Notes: generated from the sequence alone by a model not told the origin. Shown: positions 54,411 to 61,539, numbered from the stretch's first letter. The stretch: 64,000 nt of DNA from Candidatus Gottesmanbacteria bacterium (GCA_963714095.1 OY970230.1:268114-332113), one strand, 5' to 3'. Translations and numbers: made by a program.

Positions 54411-55235
54411 TTATTTTAATGCCGCGTCCACCGCAGATTGCATATCCTTGAAGCTATATGCGCCGTTAAAATTCGTCGCATTGACAAAAAATCCCGGTGT
54501 CCCCTGCACTCCGAGGGTGGAAGCCAGTTGGGTATCAGTGCCAAGCCGTGCATCATATTTGCCGGAATCCAGACACGACTTCATGAATGTCGGGTCAATC
54601 GCAGGGGCCAAAAAGTTTGCTAAATCCCCCGATTTCGTCTTATCGTTCTTCACAACAGGACTCGTCGATGGCTGGCCTGCCGGATCGGTTCCGTTTTGGA
54701 TTTCATATCCTTTTTCACTCATGATAAGATCACTGACTTCCCAAAATTTTCCCTTTTCAAATGCACAGTAGAGAGCCCTCATGCCCATTTCACCGTTCCC
54801 GTGGCCGGGATCGTAAATGTACGCAAATGCCGCCTTCCCCTGATCCACCAGATTTTTCATTTCCGGAACAGGCGCGACATACGTACCGCCGTCGGCAACC
54901 ATCTTAAACTGTGCTGATAGGTTGTTCAGCTCGGGATCTTTTCCCCCTGCAATTTGGCAAAACGGGCAGCTCGGATCCGCCACTTCAACCAATAGGAGCT
55001 TACTGTTGGCATTACCAAATTTTATTATGTCTTTCTTAAAAAGATCTTTGATTTGCGTAAGCGTTACTGTGGGAGCAGCAGCCGCGGCAGGCGTCGTCGC
55101 AGCAGCAGCAGGGGTAGCACCTTTAGAGAGATACTGCACTTTCGCCGTGAGGTTTCCGATCAAATACGCAGCAACGACAAGAGCGACAACAAGAACAATG
55201 TATAGAATATTTAGTTTTTTCGTTTGTTCAGCCAT
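54411..55235 (-). CDS. membrane-anchored DsbA-like thiol:disulfide oxidoreductase
   Basis: The ORF is trimmed to MAEQTKKLNILYIVLVVALVVA. It has a TM anchor, an Ala/Thr/Pro linker and the thioredoxin active site CPFC. A GVQGTPGFFVN motif is also present. Confidence 0.7.
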   Translation of the reverse strand: MAEQTKKLNILYIVLVVALVVAAYLIGNLTAKVQYLSKGATPAAAATTPAAAAAPTVTLTQIKDLFKKDIIKFGNANSKLLLVEVADPSCPFCQIAGGKDPELNNLSAQFKMVADGGTYVAPVPEMKNLVDQGKAAFAYIYDPGHGNGEMGMRALYCAFEKGKFWEVSDLIMSEKGYEIQNGTDPAGQPSTSPVVKNDKTKSGDLANFLAPAIDPTFMKSCLDSGKYDARLGTDTQLASTLGVQGTPGFFVNATNFNGAYSFKDMQSAVDAALK

Positions 55236-55288
55236 AGATTCCTCCCGGTTGGGCCATTTTACTGACAATTATTGTGTAATGCAAGATA

Positions 55289-56146
55289 TCAGCTTACAAG
55301 AAGTAATCCGATGAAACTTAAAACGGCGCCGATAATTTTCCTCGGCCAATACGCACGCTCCTTCAGGAATATTACAGCCAATAAAACGATAACAACGACG
55401 CTTGTCAGATTTATCGTTGCGACTTGAGAGGAATTCGGCGCTTTCTGTAACGCAACAAAAAACATCAAGGATCCTGCCGCATAAATTATACAGAGGAATA
55501 ATAATTTCCAAAATACCTTTTTGGTAAAAAATATTTTTATATGACCCAATGATTTTGGGAAAAACACCAGCGAAGGAAGTATGGGCAGGAGAAATCCGAT
55601 GAATACATAGGGATACACATGAAGGCTTTTAAGAATAAATCTGTCGTTCGTGTTCTCAAACCCATACCCTATCGCTGCAATCACAGCAAAAATTTCATAC
55701 CTGGTAATAGTAAATCTCTTTATTTTACCTGTGACAATAACGATACCCCCGAAAATACACAATGCGCCGAGCCACTGGGTGGCGTTAAACGATTCCGACA
55801 GAAGAACCGACGAAGCGAGCACCGTAAAAAGAGCACGGCTCGAAAAGAGTATTGTAAACGTTGACGCTTCTATTTTTTTGAGCGCCGTAAATAAAAAAAT
55901 ATTTCCGAATCCGTACAAGAAAGTCATCAGAATTATATTTCCCCATACATTTTGAATCCCAGCCATCGACATATCCTGCGTCAAAAACCCGTATGCGCCG
56001 ATCAATACCCCGGTAAGAGCGGAGAACACAATAAAGAAAGCAATCGGATCACTTTTATCTTCTTTTACAAAAACCCGCTGAAGTAATACTGAGATTGAAT
56101 AGGTAAGGACGCTTAACAAAATAAGGAGCTGCCAGCTCATAATCAC
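55289..56146 (-). CDS. EamA/DMT-family transporter (10 TM)
   Basis: 285 aa with two repeated 5-TM halves typical of EamA-like drug/metabolite exporters. Confidence 0.65.
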   Translation of the reverse strand: MIMSWQLLILLSVLTYSISVLLQRVFVKEDKSDPIAFFIVFSALTGVLIGAYGFLTQDMSMAGIQNVWGNIILMTFLYGFGNIFLFTALKKIEASTFTILFSSRALFTVLASSVLLSESFNATQWLGALCIFGGIVIVTGKIKRFTITRYEIFAVIAAIGYGFENTNDRFILKSLHVYPYVFIGFLLPILPSLVFFPKSLGHIKIFFTKKVFWKLLFLCIIYAAGSLMFFVALQKAPNSSQVATINLTSVVVIVLLAVIFLKERAYWPRKIIGAVLSFIGLLLVS

Positions 56147-56790
56147 TTCTTTGCAGCAATAGCTGCGTTAATAGAGGATTCAAAATCCGCAAGTGTTGCG
56201 GGGTTGTCGAGTTTTACACCGTTAAGAAAAAAAATGGGTGTCGCGTTGATGCCAAGCGCATTCCCGTCCGCAACGTCTTCGGCAACTTTATTTTTCACTG
56301 CATCTGAATCAAGATCTTTTTTAAATTGATCAACATTGATCCCCAACGACTGCGCATATTGGGCAAACATATCGCTGGCACTGGCGGATGCCGACCAGTC
56401 GTTTTGTTTGGCGAACAGAAGATTGTACATTTCCCAATATTTCCCCTGCATGCCGGCTGCTTCCGCAGCATACGCTGCGGGCTGCGCATTCGGGTGCAAA
56501 TCAGTCAGCGGAAAATTACGGTACACAAAATTCATCTTGCCGGTAAAATCTTTAACGACCTGCGTTACCACCGGATAATAGGCGCCGCATGCCGGACACT
56601 GGAAATCAGAAAACTCCACAAGCGTAACACTCGCGGACACGGAAGCGATTTTATTGCTGTCCGCACGGACAAGAAGCGTTGAATCAACTTTGGTGCCGGC
56701 CGCCGGCTTACTCAAAAGGGCTATGCCTATAGCGACAATCACTACCGTCCCGATGATGATACCTAAAAATAATTTTGTTTCCCCTTTCAT
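56143..56790 (-). CDS. membrane-anchored DsbA/BdbD-like thiol:disulfide oxidoreductase
   Basis: The ORF is trimmed to MKGETKLFLGIIIGTVVIVAIGIALL. It has a TM anchor and the active site CPAC (EFSDFQCPACGAYYP). An INATPIFFLNG motif is also present. Confidence 0.7.
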   Translation of the reverse strand: MKGETKLFLGIIIGTVVIVAIGIALLSKPAAGTKVDSTLLVRADSNKIASVSASVTLVEFSDFQCPACGAYYPVVTQVVKDFTGKMNFVYRNFPLTDLHPNAQPAAYAAEAAGMQGKYWEMYNLLFAKQNDWSASASASDMFAQYAQSLGINVDQFKKDLDSDAVKNKVAEDVADGNALGINATPIFFLNGVKLDNPATLADFESSINAAIAAKK

Positions 56791-56888
56791 ATTGCGTAAT
56801 CCACGTATTCTATCACACCACACTGACCGTGACACCCGGCAAGCCATCTTTATGGTATTATTTAATTAGACACGTTCCTGAATTTTTT

Positions 56889-59141
56889 ATGAAGGTTTCT
56901 ATTTTCAACTTCACCGCCCAAAAATGCCGGGAATATTTTTTAGCTTTCGGAAATCTCTGTCGATTTTTGGTTTATTTCTATGCCGTACCCCATCTCTTCC
57001 GGACACTATTTTCTCCGTGGAAACGGGTATATGTCCAGAAGACTGGACCCGGATTTTCCTTTAATGAATTTATTTCGAGGCTGAGTTTTAACCTCATCTC
57101 CGTCACTATCGGATTCATCCTGCGTCTGGCAATTATCAGTATCTATCTCATATCCCAGATAATTATTATCGTATTGGTGTTACCGGCGTTTTTCTTATTT
57201 ATTCTTCTGACCGTCACCGTTTTATATCCCGTCTATCTCATTCGACCGACAGACCAAGACGTGAAACAGAAAATGGAACAGGAATTTCTCAAAGAGCGCC
57301 TCTTAAAACCGGAAAACCGCAGTGCGGTAGAAATGTGGTTTACCCGGTATTATGAAACATATATCCATAAAACCCAGTGGTGGCTTCTGCATGGGCTTTT
57401 CGACCAACCGCCGCTGACGCAAAATTGGAATACCGGTTATACTGTGAATCTCGATAAATATGCGACCGATCTGACCAGGTTATTACCCCACTACCGCAAT
57501 CTGGTCGGCAGGAAAAAAGAAATTGACCAGATCGAACAGATCCTGGCAAAATCGGAAGAAAGCAATGTCGTTTTGGTGGGCGAAGACGGAGTCGGGAAAC
57601 ATACGATTTTGGAAGAAATGGCAAAACGGATGTACCTCGGAAAAACCAGCGGCTACCTGGCATTTAAACGGATGGTAGAAGTGCATCTTGACCAGCTGCT
57701 GTCAGAAAATATCGATACAGACCGCAAAAAAGAAACAGTACGGCAGATTTTTGCCGAGGCTGTTGCCGCGGGCAACATTGTGATGGTCCTCAATAATTTT
57801 GACCAATATGTTGCCGATGCACCGGGACATATAGACCTGACGTCCGTTATCGAACCGTTTGTCAAAACCAACCGGATCCAATGCATCGGTGTTACAACCC
57901 CGTTCCTGTACCAAAAATTCGTCTTCCCCAATACAAAAATCCGCGATATGTTCCAAAAAATTGATGTCTTTGAAATCAGCGAGGACGAAGCCATCACCAT
58001 CATCTGTGACTCCGCGTTCGACTTCGAACAGAAATATCACGTACTCATTCCGTATGAAGTCATCCAGACAATTATCGAGAGAAGCGATTTTTATATCACC
58101 AATATCCCTTTTCCTGAAAAAGCCATTGAACTTCTGGATGAAATCTGCGTCAACCAGGTAACAAAACAGGATTCTCGAAATGTTATACCATTGACACCTG
58201 AAATTGTTGACGAAATACTATCGGCGAAGCTGCATCTCCCGACATCGCTTACGGAAGATGTCCGCGCAAAATTAACACAGCTGGAACCGGCTCTTGCCTC
58301 CCATATTATCGACCAGCCGGAAGCCGTTGCAAAAACTGCGGCGTCGCTTCAAAAATCGTTCGTGCTCATCGGCAAACGCACGAAACCCCTGGCAACACTG
58401 TTATTTCTTGGGCCGACCGGTGTAGGAAAAACCCAGACAGCCAAAGAATTGGCTGGTTTCTTTTTCGGATCGGATAAGTATCTGTACCGCTTTGACATGT
58501 CCGAATTCCAGTCGCCCGACGATATTCCCAAATTGATCGGGTCCCCTGATACGGGACAACCGGGTGAATTAACAGAGGTCATCCGCAATAATCCGTACGG
58601 CGTACTTTTGTTGGACGAATTTGAAAAAGCCGACGGGAAATTTATAAATATCTTCTTAACTGTTTTGGATGAAGGGTATTTTACCGACGGCGCCGGCAAA
58701 CAGGTGGACTGCAAAAACCTCATTATCATCGCCACATCCAATGCGGGCAGCGAACTATTGTATGAACAGAATTCCGATACATCAACAACCGCAAAACCGG
58801 ACGACCGGACACTGATAGACTATATAATCCGGGAAAAAATTTACTCACCGGAACTGTTAAACAGGTTTGACGAAATCGTGATGTTCCGGTCTTTAACCCT
58901 GCCGTCAATCCTTAAAATTGCCCGACAGCAGGTAAACGCTATTTCCCAAAACATTCAGAAATTGCATCATATTCGCCTTGATGTCTCCGATACATATCTA
59001 TCAGACATAATCATCAAATCCTACGACATCCGTTTCGGTGCCAGAGATCTTGAGCGTATACTGCAGGATTCAATCGAAAATCATATCACAAAGTTACTTC
59101 TGGCAAAATCCGTAAAAGACGGAAACACCATTTCTTTGTAA
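56889..59141 (+). CDS. membrane-anchored Clp/Hsp100-like double-AAA+ protein (degenerate D1, canonical D2; no Clp_N domain)
   Basis: The ORF is trimmed to MKVSIFNFTAQ (ATG at 56889). About 120 N-terminal aa contain 2-3 TM helices. The D1-like module has Walker A GEDGVGKHT (T to H) and a Walker B region IVMVLNNFDQ (no DE). The D2 module has Walker A GPTGVGKTQTAKELA, Walker B VLLLDEFEKAD, the sensor NLIIIATSNAGS and a C-terminal ClpB_D2-small-like region. No I/L-G-F ClpP-docking tripeptide was seen. Confidence 0.65.
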   Translation: MKVSIFNFTAQKCREYFLAFGNLCRFLVYFYAVPHLFRTLFSPWKRVYVQKTGPGFSFNEFISRLSFNLISVTIGFILRLAIISIYLISQIIIIVLVLPAFFLFILLTVTVLYPVYLIRPTDQDVKQKMEQEFLKERLLKPENRSAVEMWFTRYYETYIHKTQWWLLHGLFDQPPLTQNWNTGYTVNLDKYATDLTRLLPHYRNLVGRKKEIDQIEQILAKSEESNVVLVGEDGVGKHTILEEMAKRMYLGKTSGYLAFKRMVEVHLDQLLSENIDTDRKKETVRQIFAEAVAAGNIVMVLNNFDQYVADAPGHIDLTSVIEPFVKTNRIQCIGVTTPFLYQKFVFPNTKIRDMFQKIDVFEISEDEAITIICDSAFDFEQKYHVLIPYEVIQTIIERSDFYITNIPFPEKAIELLDEICVNQVTKQDSRNVIPLTPEIVDEILSAKLHLPTSLTEDVRAKLTQLEPALASHIIDQPEAVAKTAASLQKSFVLIGKRTKPLATLLFLGPTGVGKTQTAKELAGFFFGSDKYLYRFDMSEFQSPDDIPKLIGSPDTGQPGELTEVIRNNPYGVLLLDEFEKADGKFINIFLTVLDEGYFTDGAGKQVDCKNLIIIATSNAGSELLYEQNSDTSTTAKPDDRTLIDYIIREKIYSPELLNRFDEIVMFRSLTLPSILKIARQQVNAISQNIQKLHHIRLDVSDTYLSDIIIKSYDIRFGARDLERILQDSIENHITKLLLAKSVKDGNTISL

Positions 59142-59149
59142 GAAAAGAC

Positions 59150-60658
59150 TCAGACGGTGGTATTCTGTATCGCAGCTGATAGCATCACAACAATCCGTTC
59201 AATTTCCGCAGAGGTTTCCGACCCTGCTGAAATCCGCAGGAATGGCCTGACAAATTTTGATCTTTTTCCGACAATGTACATACGGGTTACCGGCAACCCA
59301 AAACTTGTGCCGCCTATAAACGGAATGTTTTCCCGCCGGGCGATAGTCATAGAGGCATCAAATACTTTCCTGTACCATCTGAGCGCTTTCTTTTCATCTC
59401 TATACTGAACCATACAAAATGATCCGTGGAACGGCATATTCTTCGTCCAACGGTATCCGGGATACATGGGCAACCCGGGGTAAACGAGCGTAATGGGAAG
59501 TCTCTGTTTGACTGCAGTTTGTGAAAGTACATTGGCCACATACATTGCGTTTCGTTCTAACCTCGCAAGATATCCGGTAAGTTCCTTGCGATTTGGCTTT
59601 GGAAACGCAACTGACGAAACATCACTTATGTTTACTCCGAGACGGCGCCGGTAATCATAGAGAAATATTCCCCGGAATCCAGTCCCCCATACCACGCCCC
59701 CCGTAACGCGGTCCAACCCGAATTGTGCATATTTATTTAAACTCTCAACCCCGATAATTTCCAGTGACGGCCGAAGTTTCATCAAACCTTTTAACGGATT
59801 ATAGGAAACGGAAAGACCGCTATTATCCAGGATCAGCTTACAGGGTTTTTTATATGAATGTGCAAGATGCGAGATAATGACAGATGTGTCCGGGACCGCG
59901 ACCGTGGGATCATTTCCGAGTGTATCCAGAAATACCGCGCCCGGCTGACGGGTGTTAATTTCGGCAATAATGTGTTTCGTATCGAATTCATTTACTTCTA
60001 CAATTCTCTCGCCGAACATTGACGTAAGCATTTCCTTATTTTCAAAATAGACGCCCTGCCCCATGAGTACCGTACTGTCTTTCGGAATGGTTTCCAGCGC
60101 GTACGAGGCCGCGACTGAATATGCAGCCATACCGCTGGCCGTGACAAATAAGTATCTCGGAATGAAAAAGGGAGTTTGAAAATATTCTTTCTTGAGCGCC
60201 GTTTCAAGCGCCCACTCGTTCATATGCTGATCCCGTTTATAGTCGTTATCATTTGCAACTACGCCCCCTGCCTGCGTACCTGCCTGATTACAGACGCTGG
60301 CACTATACGAGGGAGACTGCCAATGTGTTGCTGTTACCGCCGCGCCAAGTACCCCTACAAGTGACCGCAGCCGGTCAAAACAGCTTCGTTTTCCGTCTAT
60401 AAGCACCCGATCCGCAACTTCACCCGATTGTACGTTCTTTTTAAGCCGACTCATGTCTGATGCAATTTCATCCAGTTGGATATGAAGCGTTTCAACAATC
60501 ATTTTGCAGTTCTTTGCCGTTTCACCAAGGATATCTTTTCTGTGAAGATTCAACTCATCACGATATGTTTCAAGTTTTTCAGCCGCGTCGGAAAACAAAT
60601 ATTCCAGAAGGTTAAAATCGCATATTAGATCTTTTCGCGTTTGCGTATCGACGACCAT
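59150..60658 (-). CDS. PLP-dependent enzyme of the Cys/Met-metabolism (cystathionine lyase/synthase) family with ~150-aa N-terminal extension
   Basis: 502 aa. Motifs in family order: FVTASGMAAYS, LILDNSGLSV, SLNKYAQFGLDRVTGGVV (putative PLP-Lys) and LRISAGSETSAEIERIV. The N-terminal ~150 aa are predicted helical/coiled and are not part of the canonical fold. Confidence 0.55.
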   Translation of the reverse strand: MVVDTQTRKDLICDFNLLEYLFSDAAEKLETYRDELNLHRKDILGETAKNCKMIVETLHIQLDEIASDMSRLKKNVQSGEVADRVLIDGKRSCFDRLRSLVGVLGAAVTATHWQSPSYSASVCNQAGTQAGGVVANDNDYKRDQHMNEWALETALKKEYFQTPFFIPRYLFVTASGMAAYSVAASYALETIPKDSTVLMGQGVYFENKEMLTSMFGERIVEVNEFDTKHIIAEINTRQPGAVFLDTLGNDPTVAVPDTSVIISHLAHSYKKPCKLILDNSGLSVSYNPLKGLMKLRPSLEIIGVESLNKYAQFGLDRVTGGVVWGTGFRGIFLYDYRRRLGVNISDVSSVAFPKPNRKELTGYLARLERNAMYVANVLSQTAVKQRLPITLVYPGLPMYPGYRWTKNMPFHGSFCMVQYRDEKKALRWYRKVFDASMTIARRENIPFIGGTSFGLPVTRMYIVGKRSKFVRPFLRISAGSETSAEIERIVVMLSAAIQNTTV

Positions 60659-60678
60659 ATAGATGATATTATAATGGA

Positions 60679-61539
60679 ATGAAACCTATTGCACTTGTCA
60701 CCTACCGTAACAACCCAAAACTGAATACTAGTGACTCTCTTTTACCGGCTGAATTTGCCAAGCATAACACACAGGTTGTTCCGGCTGCATGGGATGATCC
60801 CTCTGTCAACTGGTCCGCATACTCCCACGTAATTCTTCGATCCTGCTGGAACTACCATACCAATTTTGAATCCTTCCGCGCATGGCTTACCCGACTTCAT
60901 ACGCGTGAAACACAGATTTGGAATCCTTATGAAATCGTCTTATGGAATACACGAAAAAGCTATCTGTTCGATCTTGCAACCAAAGGAGTAGTAATTGTCC
61001 CGAGTGTCCTCATAGGCTCACCAACCTCCGCAACACTAAAAAGAGTTGCGGAAAAAAACGGATGGAACGAGTGCATCATAAAACCCGTAATCGGCGCATC
61101 CGCATTTCATATCATAAAAATCAACGTGAAAGATTTTGAAAGAAGCCAAAGTCTTTCGGACATCCTGCGGTACGGCGACATCATCCTGCAACCGTTTATG
61201 GAAGATGTCGCTAAGGTGGGAGAATATTCATTTGTATTTTTCAATAAACAATACAGTCATGCAGTTATTAAAAAACCCAAATCGCATGAATTCAGGTCGC
61301 AGCCGGAATTTGGGGGAACTGAACGGCCGGTAACCGTTCCAAACGCAATTATTGCGCAGGCCACACATATACTCAATACTGTTCCTTCACCGCTTCTCTA
61401 CGCCCGCGTTGACGGCATTGTACAAAGCGGAATATTTTATCTTATGGAATTGGAACTTACGGAGCCGTATTTATTTTTTGAATATGAACCGTCTGCGCCT
61501 AAAAAATTTGTTGATGCATTTCTTTCGCTAAATACATAG
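60679..61539 (+). CDS. ATP-grasp ligase, glutathione-synthetase/RimK-like
   Basis: 286 aa. An N-terminal pre-ATP-grasp region (VILRSCWNYHTNFESFRAWLTRL) is followed by an ATP-grasp core (CIIKPVIGASAFHIIKI ... YARVDGIVQSGIFYLMELELTEP). Confidence 0.55.
   Translation: MKPIALVTYRNNPKLNTSDSLLPAEFAKHNTQVVPAAWDDPSVNWSAYSHVILRSCWNYHTNFESFRAWLTRLHTRETQIWNPYEIVLWNTRKSYLFDLATKGVVIVPSVLIGSPTSATLKRVAEKNGWNECIIKPVIGASAFHIIKINVKDFERSQSLSDILRYGDIILQPFMEDVAKVGEYSFVFFNKQYSHAVIKKPKSHEFRSQPEFGGTERPVTVPNAIIAQATHILNTVPSPLLYARVDGIVQSGIFYLMELELTEPYLFFEYEPSAPKKFVDAFLSLNT

What the first reader, a model, noticed from the sequence alone, without database searches (positions are those of the whole stretch)
59150..61539. 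Cys/Met-family PLP enzyme with a 150-aa N-terminal extension, divergent from a GshB/RimK-like ATP-grasp ligase
The PLP enzyme has the Cys/Met-family motif order (SGMAAY ... DNS ... SLNKY-PLP-Lys ... ISAGSE). It is preceded by a helical/coiled ~150-aa extension not found in MetB/MetC/MGL-type enzymes. A short (286 aa) glutathione-synthetase/RimK-type ATP-grasp ligase is transcribed divergently only 20 nt away, which suggests shared regulation. Together they could make a Cys-derived gamma-glutamyl or amino-acid conjugate (a low-molecular-weight thiol?), or modify a peptide. Reduced genomes rarely keep Cys/Met interconversion enzymes without a reason.
Basis: partly seen in the sequence, partly recalled or inferred. 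Interest (0 to 1): 0.55.

Follow-up and report, generated by a model that had tools for sequence, protein, structure and literature searches.

The report
Divergent PLP enzyme paired with DcsG-like ligase
Two real, back-to-back genes in a small (probably Patescibacteria) genome encode an unstudied branch of the cysteine/methionine PLP enzyme family and a ligase related to D-cycloserine synthetase, and their relatives' neighbours point to supply of an unusual amino acid for the cell wall, not to a new thiol.

Summary
A 502-aa ORF (59150-60658, minus) and a 286-aa ORF (60679-61539, plus) are divergent and 20 nt apart. The first is a very divergent Cys/Met-fold PLP enzyme: it gets no Pfam hit, but profile, fold and motif evidence agree, and K309 aligns with the PLP lysine. 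Its N-terminal addition is a three-helix bundle of about 100 aa, not 150, and occurs only in this family. The second is an ATP-grasp enzyme whose closest characterised relative is D-cycloserine synthetase DcsG, not GshB or RimK.

The two genes are adjacent in seven deeply diverged loci, in three arrangements. A second, canonical Cys/Met PLP paralog also sits beside this ATP-grasp in another lineage. The pairing is not obligatory: only 2 of 61 unbiased genomes have it. The PLP family more often neighbours a DoeB/AstE-like zinc deacylase (22 loci) or the peptidoglycan ligases MurF/MurE (12 loci, some with L-2,3-diaminopropionate synthesis genes).

Best reading, held at low to moderate confidence: a two-step module. 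The PLP enzyme makes or racemises a non-standard (D- or diamino) amino acid, and the ligase couples it, probably for peptidoglycan. Nothing specifically supports the low-molecular-weight-thiol idea. The chemistry is unresolved.

The parts
59150..60658 (-). Gene for a 502-aa divergent Cys/Met-fold PLP-dependent enzyme of the N-terminally extended subfamily
   Evidence: ORF. 123 homologs at 30-38% identity, mostly about 500 aa, most carrying PF01053. Profile vs PDB: MGL 1.5e-17. Foldseek: CGS/MGL/CGL, probability 1.0, TMt 0.64-0.74. AF2 pLDDT 92.7.
60332..60658 (-). N-terminal three-helix bundle (aa 1-109), the family-specific extension
   Evidence: AF2 helices 2-38, 45-78, 83-109 at pLDDT >90. 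Absent from canonical enzymes. Found almost only at N-termini of what appears to be this family.
60209..60331 (-). Conserved non-helical linker (aa 110-150) with the invariant WQSPS (113-116) and D-Y140-K-R142-D-x-H motifs; probable equivalent of the canonical N-terminal arm (Tyr*-x-Arg* phosphate contacts)
   Evidence: Invariant columns in A1. Spacing to the SGMAA loop matches canonical Tyr/Arg (inference).
59732..59734 (-). Codon of K309, the predicted PLP Schiff-base lysine (ESLNKY)
   Evidence: Invariant in the family. Aligned with K of HSVTKY / HSCTKY. Codon position.
60659..60678 (.). 20-nt gap between the divergent start codons
   Evidence: The same layout with a 26-nt gap occurs in L151.
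60648..60675 (+). Promoter-like site TCGACG-16-TATAAT that ends 3 nt before the ATP-grasp ATG; the -35 hexamer lies inside the PLP gene's first codons
   Evidence: Consensus scan, 10 of 12 matches. This is a pattern match only.
60679..61539 (+). Gene for a 286-aa DcsG-like ATP-grasp enzyme (carboxylate-amine ligase or cyclo-ligase)
   Evidence: NCBIfam DcsG 1.7e-44 (152 bits, cutoff 360). PDB 6jil 3.5e-21. Foldseek DcsG TM 0.86, E 8e-25. Invariant K135, E182, R243, D245, E257, E259. More than 2800 homologs.

Best explanation
The two genes form a facultative two-enzyme module that tailors an amino acid.

Shown: the 502-aa protein is a catalytically competent-looking, very divergent member of the Cys/Met-metabolism PLP fold. 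It belongs to a distinct subfamily defined by an N-terminal three-helix bundle and by the WQSPS and DYKRDQH motifs. The 286-aa protein is an ATP-grasp enzyme of the DcsG type with all nucleotide/Mg2+ residues conserved.

Inferred: the PLP enzyme produces, or racemises/epimerises, a small non-standard amino acid, most likely a D-amino acid or a diamino acid. The ATP-grasp then activates a carboxylate as an acyl-phosphate and forms an amide (or a ring) with it. The most probable destination is the peptidoglycan stem peptide or its recycling. This is analogous in logic to racemase + ATP-grasp ligase + Zn-peptidase + MurF modules such as VanT/VanC/VanXY and Alr-MurF fusions.

The exact substrate and reaction type are not established.
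For: PLP-competent active site:
- SGMAA phosphate loop, Y204 stacking Tyr, D278, S306/K309 and R475 all align with canonical residues.
- High-confidence fold match to CGS/MGL/CGL.

ATP-grasp:
- DcsG is the closest solved and curated relative.
- From my own knowledge, not checked here: DcsG acts on a D-amino-acid carboxylate.

Linkage of the two genes:
- Immediate adjacency in the window and L151 (divergent, 20-26 nt), in L149 and L070 (PLP then ATP-grasp, with an overlap in L070), and in L001, L011 and L027 (ATP-grasp then PLP, with a 4-nt overlap in L001).
- The PLP proteins of five of these loci that were compared (L001, L070, L149, L151, plus L067) are only 32-37% identical to the window's.
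- The NJ tree places the window apart from the L001/L011/L027 clade.
- The ATP-grasp lies 3.7-10 kb away in two further genomes.
- A canonical 386-aa Cys/Met PLP paralog sits directly downstream of the same ATP-grasp family in another lineage.

Cell-wall context of the PLP family:
- MurF is adjacent in 11 loci, in two arrangements and two clades. TIGR01143 scores were 322-413 bits, above the 288.6 cutoff, for the five MurF genes scanned.
- MurE, with its DNPR motif, is divergent from the PLP gene or directly downstream of it in five loci.
- SbnA/SbnB-like L-Dap synthesis genes lie in the same operon in about five to six loci.
- In 22 Patescibacteria loci, a Zn-deacylase closest to N-acetyl-DABA deacetylase DoeB occupies the divergent slot that the ATP-grasp holds in the window.

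Precedents:
- NCBIfam has a curated MurF-alanine racemase fusion (NF008897) and a Cys/Met-fold archaeal Ala/Glu racemase (NF041088).
- E. coli cystathionine beta-lyase is a promiscuous alanine racemase that uses the stacking Tyr as catalytic acid (PMC5025676).
Against: - No enzyme assay exists for any member of either family. Reaction type cannot be read from sequence.
- In the unbiased genome sample only 2 of 61 PLP loci have the ATP-grasp within 6 kb.
- The ATP-grasp family is far larger than the PLP family (>2800 hits against about 140 clusters) and occurs mostly without it. In Chloroflexi it sits inside a panB-panE/panC-coaX-X-coaBC operon, and elsewhere beside D-2-hydroxyacid dehydrogenases. 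Its core function may therefore be unrelated to peptidoglycan.
- No Mur ligase lies near the PLP gene in any Patescibacteria locus or in the window. The cell-wall link is transferred from homologs that are 30-35% identical.
- Some local synteny in Patescibacteria (T4P genes, GH130, QueA, NUDIX) is shared by descent and could inflate apparent linkage.
- The stacking Tyr is Trp in 2 of 24 family members.
Confidence: 0.38

Rival explanations
1. Ordinary sulfur-amino-acid enzyme plus an unrelated neighbour. The PLP protein is a divergent cystathionine/homocysteine/methionine lyase used for salvage or detoxification in a reduced genome. The ATP-grasp has an independent housekeeping role, and the adjacency is an effect of genome compaction.
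For: The closest families by sequence and fold are CGS, MGL and CGL. The pairing is rare in the unbiased set, 2 of 61. The ATP-grasp is mostly found without the PLP gene. The window's neighbours are all housekeeping genes, and gaps are short everywhere. A RidA gene lies in the wider neighbourhood in one genome.
Against: Adjacency recurs in three arrangements in deeply diverged lineages, including translationally coupled overlaps. It also occurs with a second PLP paralog. The PLP family's repeated adjacency to MurF/MurE is not expected for a catabolic lyase. All NCBIfam scores are about ten-fold below the equivalog cutoffs.
Confidence: 0.2
2. Synthesis of a surrogate diamino (dicarboxylic) acid for peptidoglycan. 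The PLP enzyme performs a CGS- or lanthionine-synthase-like beta/gamma-replacement to make cystathionine, lanthionine, DABA or an aza-analogue from L-Dap, which MurE then incorporates. The ATP-grasp or the DoeB-like deacylase handles an acylated or ligated form.
For: A DNPR-type MurE, which binds a substrate with a distal carboxylate, lies next to the PLP gene. SbnA/SbnB-like L-Dap synthesis genes are in the same operon. The most common partner resembles N-acetyl-2,4-diaminobutyrate deacetylase. Replacement chemistry is native to this fold. From my own knowledge, not checked here: E. coli can put cystathionine or lanthionine in place of DAP.
Against: No homoserine- or serine-activating enzyme is seen in any neighbourhood. 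MurF, not MurE, is the more frequent Mur partner. The reading needs more assumptions than racemisation does. There is no Mur or Sbn gene near the Patescibacteria copies.
Confidence: 0.17
3. The pair makes a cysteine-derived conjugate (a low-molecular-weight thiol or gamma-glutamyl compound), or supplies cysteine to a ligase. The PLP enzyme would liberate cysteine and the GshB-like ATP-grasp would ligate it.
For: There is weak GSH-S_ATP similarity: 22.7 bits against a cutoff of 23. In Chloroflexi the ATP-grasp sits between coaX and coaBC, and CoaBC consumes cysteine. A canonical CGL/MGL-like paralog lies beside the ATP-grasp in one lineage.
Against: GshB is a distant structural neighbour (15% identity, E 8e-15) compared with DcsG (E 8e-25). 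No gamma-glutamylcysteine ligase or other thiol-pathway gene appears in any neighbourhood examined. The PLP family's main partners are Mur ligases and a deacylase.
Confidence: 0.08
4. A cycloserine-like antimetabolite pathway. As with DcsD + DcsG, a PLP replacement enzyme makes a side-chain-substituted amino acid that the DcsG-like enzyme cyclises into a small heterocycle or lactam/thiolactone.
For: DcsG is the nearest characterised relative. The pairing of a PLP replacement enzyme with an ATP-grasp mirrors the dcs logic (my own knowledge of the dcs cluster, not checked here).
Against: The score is far below the DcsG equivalog cutoff, 152 against 360. No other dcs-like genes (arginase, hydroxylase, racemase, acetyltransferase, resistance Ddl) appear in the window or in related loci. 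The family is widespread in streamlined genomes and sits in a CoA operon, which does not look like secondary metabolism.
Confidence: 0.06
5. Peptide or protein modification. The ATP-grasp would be a graspetide macrocyclase or a RimK/LysX-type enzyme that acts on a ribosomal peptide or carrier protein.
For: LysX/ArgX, RimK and PsnB are second-tier fold matches.
Against: There is no room for a precursor or LysW-like gene: the flanking gaps are 8, 20 and 15 nt. None was called in the related loci. PsnB and MdnB match worse (TM 0.63-0.68) than DcsG (0.86).
Confidence: 0.03

Closest known systems
Cys/Met-metabolism PLP enzymes (Pfam PF01053: cystathionine gamma-synthase, methionine gamma-lyase, cystathionine gamma/beta-lyase)
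   Same: Same fold (Foldseek probability 1.0, TMt up to 0.74). Same order and identity of cofactor-binding residues: SGMAA loop, stacking Tyr, DN(S/T) Asp, S-x-x-K lysine and C-terminal Arg.
   Different: Only 15-21% identity. The window protein gets no Pfam hit at E<=0.1, and its NCBIfam scores are about 10% of the cutoffs. It has an extra N-terminal three-helix bundle. The canonical N-terminal arm is shortened and rewritten (WQSPS, DYKRDQH). Glu replaces Gly/Cys/Pro two residues after the stacking Tyr. It has family-specific invariant residues, such as R317. Its genomic partners are Mur ligases, a deacylase and an ATP-grasp, not met/cys genes.
D-cycloserine synthetase DcsG (PDB 6jil; NCBIfam NF058666; Pfam DcsG_N PF27100)
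   Same: Best sequence and structure match over the full length: TM 0.86, 24% identity, with the DcsG_N domain in homologs. Same size, about 290 aa.
   Different: 152 bits against the equivalog cutoff of 360. No dcs cluster is present. The family is spread over Patescibacteria, Chloroflexi and soil bacteria in primary-metabolism-like contexts such as a CoA operon and D-2-hydroxyacid dehydrogenases.
Racemase + ATP-grasp ligase + Zn-peptidase + MurF modules (VanT/VanC/VanXY, VanH/VanA/VanX, Alr-MurF fusions NF008897). This is an analogy of logic, not of homology.
   Same: The set of partner activities seen around these two families matches: a PLP enzyme, an ATP-grasp ligase, a Zn hydrolase, MurF and a D-2-hydroxyacid dehydrogenase.
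   Different: None of the proteins is orthologous to the Van proteins. The PLP enzyme is fold type I Cys/Met, not fold type III Alr/VanT. The hydrolase is AstE/DoeB-like, not M15. All parts are never seen together in one locus.
E. coli cystathionine beta-lyase MetC as a promiscuous alanine racemase (Soo et al. 2016, PMC5025676) and the archaeal Cys/Met-fold Ala/Glu racemase (NCBIfam NF041088)
   Same: They show that this fold can racemise amino acids using the PLP lysine plus the stacking Tyr, and that the residue at Tyr+2 tunes the activity. The window protein keeps the Tyr and has a family-typical Glu at Tyr+2.
   Different: No specific sequence affinity: NF041088 is not among the window protein's hits. 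Racemase activity here is a hypothesis.

Membership tests
Cys/Met metabolism PLP-dependent enzymes (PF01053) | Passes the Pfam gathering threshold | tested here: not met
   No Pfam family at E<=0.1 for the window protein. Most homologs, at 30-38% identity, do carry precomputed PF01053 hits.
Cys/Met metabolism PLP-dependent enzymes (PF01053) | Fold type I Cys/Met architecture | tested here: met
   AF2 pLDDT 92.7. The top 50 Foldseek PDB hits are all CGS/MGL/CGL/OAHS, probability 1.0. Family profile vs PDB: MGL 1.5e-17.
Cys/Met metabolism PLP-dependent enzymes (PF01053) | Schiff-base lysine in the S-x-x-K motif, Asp to the pyridine N, stacking Tyr, Gly-rich phosphate loop and C-terminal carboxylate-binding Arg | tested here: met
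   K309, S306, D278, Y204, S175-G176-M177 and R475 align with canonical residues. All but Y204 are invariant in the alignment; Y204 is conserved at 90% or more.
Cys/Met metabolism PLP-dependent enzymes (PF01053) | Tyr*-x-Arg* phosphate contacts from the neighbouring subunit's N-terminal arm | tested here: inconclusive
   Y140-K-R142 are invariant and correctly spaced, but hhalign and HMMER did not align this region. No oligomer model was made.
Specific equivalogs: cystathionine gamma-synthase, CGL, MGL, CBL | Score above the NCBIfam equivalog cutoff | tested here: not met
   Best is PRK08574 at 44.5 bits against 477. Others are 21-28 bits against 440-666. The MGL-type Cys at Tyr+2 is absent (Glu206).
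ATP-grasp superfamily (GshB/RimK/LysX/Ddl type) | ATP-grasp fold with conserved Lys, Glu and Arg/Asp/Glu-x-Glu nucleotide/Mg2+ residues | tested here: met
   AF2 pLDDT 94.3. Foldseek hits DcsG, ArgX/LysX, RimK, GshB and Ddl at probability 1.0. K135, E182, R243, D245, E257 and E259 are invariant. Assigning these residues to nucleotide/Mg2+ binding is my inference.
Glutathione synthetase (GshB) / RimK | Passes the family thresholds | tested here: not met
   PF02955 scores 22.7 bits against a cutoff of 23. NCBIfam glutathione synthase models score 14.7-25.5 bits against 272-408. There is no RimK hit. Structural identity to GshB or RimK is 14-16%.
D-cycloserine synthetase DcsG (NF058666 equivalog) | Score above the equivalog cutoff | tested here: not met
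   152.2 bits against 360. It is nonetheless the nearest characterised relative.
D-cycloserine synthetase DcsG (NF058666 equivalog) | Located in a dcs-type biosynthetic cluster | tested here: not met
   The neighbours are a ClpB-like ATPase, DsbA-like proteins, EamA, SecA, SerRS and RuvABC. No dcs-like genes appear in the related loci either.
Peptidoglycan-precursor pathway (functional assignment, not a sequence family) | Conserved linkage to mur genes | tested here: inconclusive
   Met for Actinomycetota/Omnitrophota members: 12 loci with MurF/MurE. Not met for Patescibacteria members or for the window.
Peptidoglycan-precursor pathway (functional assignment, not a sequence family) | Complementary absence of alr, murI, ddl or dap genes in carrier genomes | not testable with these tools
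   Only +/-6-10 kb around each hit could be fetched. Whole genomes were not available.

The most novel reading that the evidence does not exclude
The N-terminally extended Cys/Met-fold family is a previously unrecognised peptidoglycan-precursor enzyme. It would be either a non-canonical amino-acid racemase/epimerase or a synthase of a D- or diamino acid. Together with MurF/MurE, a DoeB-like deacylase or a DcsG-type ATP-grasp ligase, it would build or recycle a non-standard stem peptide in Patescibacteria, Thermoleophilia, Acidimicrobiia and Omnitrophota. The DcsG-type ATP-grasp would then be a new class of D-configured-acid ligase of primary metabolism.
Probability: 0.3. Interest if true: 0.75.

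Novelty: new variant of a known kind. Interest (0 to 1): 0.5.

Why it matters
Both proteins belong to well-known superfamilies, but to uncharacterised branches. One is a roughly 140-cluster PLP subfamily with its own N-terminal domain. The other is a large ATP-grasp family whose only studied member makes D-cycloserine.

If the cell-wall reading is right, it would fill a gap in how ultra-small symbiotic bacteria and poorly studied Actinomycetota obtain D- or diamino acids for peptidoglycan. It would also add a new enzyme pair to a pathway that is a major antibiotic target. Finally, it would give the first physiological role for DcsG-like ligases outside antibiotic biosynthesis.

If the ordinary reading is right, this is just a divergent sulfur-amino-acid lyase beside an unrelated ligase.

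Tried and rejected
- Pfam on the PLP ORF gave nothing at E<=0.1, and single-sequence phmmer against PDB gave no relevant hit. A family profile and a structure model were needed.
- The afdb50 fold library was unavailable.
- I searched for the N-terminal domain in other protein contexts. Apart from two internal hits, one in a repetitive 3442-aa protein, every hit lies at the N-terminus of what appears to be this family.
- I looked in the 64-kb window for the partners seen elsewhere. tblastn with the AstE-like deacylase, GH130, QueA, T2SSE/F, SbnA and SbnB-like queries and the MurF-profile hmmsearch found none.
- I looked for Mur ligases near Patescibacteria copies of the PLP gene. None was found.
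- A motif search for Alr, Ddl and MurI in all fetched loci, intended as a probe for whole-genome presence, found only one non-CPR Alr and was of no use.
- Literature searches found nothing relevant on ATP-grasp + CoA operon, ATP-grasp + CGS clusters, DcsG homologs, or CPR racemases. The DcsG structure paper is not held.
- Graspetide/LysW reading: rejected for lack of any adjacent small ORF (gaps 8, 20 and 15 nt).
- PanC replacement by the ATP-grasp: rejected because the Chloroflexi operon already encodes a PanE-PanC fusion.
- The four canonical-PLP + ATP-grasp loci turned out to be one lineage (91-94% identity), so they count as a single observation.
Full report
**1. What is in the sequence**

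The window has a 502-aa ORF at 59150-60658 (minus strand) and a 286-aa ORF at 60679-61539 (plus strand). Their start codons face away from each other across 20 nt, ATAGATGATATTATAATGGA. Both are real genes. The first has 123 detected homologs, the best at E = 2.7e-99 with 96% coverage. The second has more than 2800, the best at 5.3e-82 with 99% coverage.

The same two proteins occur on contigs of 516,014 nt (ENA sample ERZ25039480) and 1,088,247 nt (contig sizes also). The nearest relatives of both proteins are from Patescibacteria, including Gottesmanbacteria, Uhrbacteria and Microgenomates. The surrounding genes are housekeeping: a membrane-anchored ClpB-like ATPase, two DsbA-like proteins, an EamA transporter, RuvABC, a Znu transporter, RF, SecA and SerRS. 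Gaps to the flanking genes are 8 and 15 nt, so the 20-nt gap is typical of this compact genome.

**2. The PLP enzyme**

- *Sequence searches.* Pfam gives no hit at E<=0.1, and single-sequence search of PDB gives no relevant hit. NCBIfam gives only weak hits to cystathionine gamma-synthase-type models: 44.5 bits against a cutoff of 477.
- *Profile and fold.* A 24-sequence family alignment (A1) used as a profile finds methionine gamma-lyase at 1.5e-17 in PDB. An AlphaFold2 model (pLDDT 92.7) matches CGS, MGL and CGL with probability 1.0, TM up to 0.74 and 15-21% identity.
- *Active-site residues.* The residue-level alignments put every cofactor residue in place:
  - S175-G-M-A-A on the phosphate loop;
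  - Y204 on the stacking Tyr;
  - D278 on the DNT Asp;
  - S306 and K309 on the S-x-T-K lysine motif;
  - R475 (PFLRISAGSE) on the carboxylate-binding Arg of IRLSVGIE.

K309, D278, S306 and R475 are invariant in the family.
- *The extension.* hhalign maps window residue 169 to canonical residue 73. The model shows helices 2-38, 45-78 and 83-109. The true addition is therefore a three-helix bundle of about 100 aa. Residues 110-150 carry the invariant motifs W113-Q-S-P and D139-Y-K-R-D-x-H145. By spacing, these probably replace the canonical N-terminal arm with its Tyr-x-Arg pair (inference).
- *Is the extension mobile?* A full HMMER scan of 1.84 billion representatives with residues 1-150 found 143 proteins. 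Nearly all carry the match at the N-terminus of a protein of up to about 560 aa, mostly 430-550 aa. Two hits lie internally in other proteins, one of them a repetitive 3442-aa protein. The extension is a hallmark of this subfamily, not a mobile domain.
- *Distribution.* The family is found in Patescibacteria and Actinomycetota (Thermoleophilia, Acidimicrobiia), with one Omnitrophota MAG.

**3. The ATP-grasp**

NCBIfam's D-cycloserine synthetase model is by far the best hit: 1.7e-44 and 152 bits, below the equivalog cutoff of 360. GSH-S_ATP just misses the Pfam threshold. PDB 6jil (DcsG) is the only convincing sequence hit, at 3.5e-21.

The AF2 model (pLDDT 94.3) superposes on DcsG with TM 0.86 (E 8e-25, 24% identity). 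ArgX/LysX, RimK, GshB, PsnB and Ddl follow at E of about 1e-15 and 12-17% identity. The residues I take to be the nucleotide/Mg2+ residues (K135, E182, R243, D245, E257, E259) are invariant across 29 homologs that are 40-48% identical to the window protein.

'GshB/RimK-type' is therefore correct for the superfamily. The specific affinity is to DcsG. From my own knowledge, not checked here: DcsG forms an acyl-phosphate on a D-amino acid and closes a ring.

**4. Are the two genes linked?**

*Unbiased sample.* In 61 species-representative genomes found through a PLP-family motif, the ATP-grasp lies within 6 kb in only two, L011 and L027. The pairing is not a rule.

*Recurrence.* The adjacency nevertheless recurs in different forms:

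| Arrangement | Loci | Note |
|---|---|---|
| Divergent, 20-26 nt apart | window, L151 | |
| PLP then ATP-grasp | L149, L070 | overlap in L070 |
| ATP-grasp then PLP | L001, L011, L027 | 4-nt overlap in L001 |
| Same strand, 3.7 kb apart | L067 | |
| About 10 kb apart | the 1.22-Mb genome | |

The PLP proteins of five compared loci (L001, L067, L070, L149, L151) are only 32-37% identical to the window's. The NJ tree separates the window from the L001/L011/L027 clade. The linkage was therefore either kept for a very long time or formed more than once.

*Further support.* Matching contig lengths in the two homolog lists suggest at least four more co-contig pairs. Independently, one other lineage places a canonical-length (386-aa) Cys/Met PLP enzyme directly downstream of the same ATP-grasp family. 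There are four such loci, but they are 91-94% identical, so they count as one observation.

*Caveat.* Part of the Patescibacteria neighbourhood (type IV pilus genes, two GH130 genes, QueA, NUDIX) is conserved by descent. This can mimic functional linkage.

**5. What else travels with each gene**

*PLP family, 72 loci in all:*
- In 22 Patescibacteria loci, spread over the whole Patescibacteria part of the PLP tree, the divergent upstream slot is held by a roughly 315-aa AstE/AspA-family protein. That is the slot the ATP-grasp occupies in the window. Its closest solved and curated relative is N-acetyl-L-2,4-diaminobutyrate deacetylase DoeB. It carries D-x-x-E where the family usually has H-x-x-E.
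- In 12 Actinomycetota/Omnitrophota loci the neighbour is a peptidoglycan Mur ligase, in three layouts:
  - MurE(-) | PLP(+) MurF(+), followed in most of them by SbnA-like(+) SbnB-like(+), in six loci. MurE was detected in four of the six and SbnA/SbnB in five.
  - MurF(-) | PLP(+), as an isolated divergent pair, in five loci.
  - PLP(+) MurE(+) in a Microthrixaceae MAG.

  The scanned MurF genes score 322-413 bits against the TIGR01143 cutoff of 288.6. The scanned MurE genes score 431-472 bits against the cutoff of 373, and the four MurE genes checked in the first layout keep the DNPR motif.
- No Mur ligase is near any Patescibacteria copy or in the window.

*ATP-grasp family (80 metagenomic loci plus look-ups):*
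- It is mostly found without any PLP gene.
- In Chloroflexi it sits inside panB - panE::panC - coaX - X - coaBC.
- In three low-GC loci it abuts a D-isomer-specific 2-hydroxyacid dehydrogenase.
- In 12 loci, probably one high-GC soil lineage, it follows gyrB.

**6. Interpretation**

*Shown.* Both proteins look catalytically intact. Each belongs to an uncharacterised branch of a known superfamily. They are linked more often, and in more ways, than chance or shared ancestry easily explains.

*Inferred.*
- Every recurrent partner of the PLP family makes or breaks an amide bond on an amino acid: MurF, MurE, an ATP-grasp and a Zn deacylase.
- The Mur genes tie the family to the peptidoglycan stem peptide.
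- The SbnA/SbnB genes and the DoeB-like partner point to diamino acids (Dap, DABA).
- DcsG, the D-2-hydroxyacid dehydrogenases and MurF (D-Ala-D-Ala) point to D-configured substrates.

*Most economical reading.* The PLP enzyme supplies a non-standard amino acid by racemisation/epimerisation or by beta/gamma-replacement, and a ligase then couples it. Racemisation has precedent in this fold. E. coli cystathionine beta-lyase racemises alanine with the stacking Tyr as catalytic acid, and the residue at Tyr+2 tunes this activity (PMC5025676). NCBIfam also curates a Cys/Met-fold archaeal Ala/Glu racemase and MurF-alanine racemase fusions. The overall logic resembles the Van-type modules (racemase or D-hydroxyacid dehydrogenase + ATP-grasp ligase + Zn peptidase + MurF). 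That is an analogy, not homology.

*Confidence.* I put about 0.38 on this reading as stated. About 0.17 goes on the 'surrogate diamino acid' rival, which is also cell-wall-linked. About 0.2 goes on the dull alternative: an ordinary sulfur-amino-acid lyase next to an unrelated ligase. The thiol idea gets about 0.08. Its only support is weak GshB similarity and the coaBC context of some ATP-grasp homologs. Cycloserine-like and peptide-modification readings are unlikely: there is no dcs cluster and no room for a precursor gene.

**7. Novelty and verdict**

The finding is real, and it was more accurately described than interpreted. It is a new variant of known kinds: a distinct, unstudied PLP subfamily with its own N-terminal domain, paired with a DcsG-like ligase of unknown function.

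The most interesting result came from outside the window. The family is repeatedly associated with murF/murE, with L-Dap synthesis genes and with a DoeB-like deacylase. This makes a concrete, testable cell-wall hypothesis.

Substrate and reaction remain unknown, and the transfer of context from 30-35% identical homologs is the weakest step. Interest: 0.5.

Noticed in passing
L031 4338-10788 (also L038, L039, L047, L049, L055): Thermoleophilia/Gaiellales loci carry an unusual layout, murE(-) | N-extended PLP(+) murF(+) sbnA-like(+) sbnB-like(+). Peptidoglycan stem-peptide ligases sit in one block with L-2,3-diaminopropionate synthesis genes, away from any recognisable dcw cluster.
   Followed up: partly
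L150 1772-7690 (also L078, L098, L114): A Chloroflexi operon reads panB - panE::panC fusion - coaX - DcsG-like ATP-grasp - coaBC, with genes 4-6 nt apart. The ATP-grasp sits inside a pantothenate/CoA operon that lacks only a beta-alanine-forming step.
   Followed up: partly
L002-L036 (22 loci), e.g. L009 5035-5967 (-): The AstE/AspA-family partner of the PLP gene has an invariant D-G-D-E where the family's H-x-x-E metal motif is expected (TaG.DGDEY). It keeps the DLH and EsG motifs. Its closest structure is the DoeB deacetylase.
   Followed up: partly
window 56775-59141 (+): A ClpB/ClpC-like double AAA+ ATPase has a hydrophobic, apparently membrane-spanning N-terminal region of about 170 aa in place of a Clp N-domain. 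The longest ORF (TTG at 56775) overlaps the upstream DsbA-like gene by 73 nt. The public gene call is 750 aa, so the true start is probably further downstream.
   Followed up: no
window 54411-56847: Two DsbA/thioredoxin-like genes (54411-55268 and 56143-56847, both minus strand) flank an EamA-family transporter (55289-56146). This may be a small envelope redox/export unit.
   Followed up: no
window 60648-60675 (+): A near-consensus promoter-like site (TCGACG-16-TATAAT) ends 3 nt before the ATP-grasp start codon. If it is real, the transcript would be leaderless or would start inside the annotated codon 1-2.
   Followed up: no
L069 5006-7623; L071; L085: In three low-GC loci the DcsG-like ATP-grasp is tightly flanked by a D-isomer-specific 2-hydroxyacid dehydrogenase, and in L069 also by an SDR reductase. 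The layout is reminiscent of VanH-VanA.
   Followed up: partly
L012-type record titles (e.g. L002-L007, L011, L013-L016): Many GTDB-representative MAGs that carry typical Patescibacteria gene content are titled 'uncultured Gammaproteobacteria bacterium' in their records. These are likely placeholder or mislabelled taxonomy.
   Followed up: no
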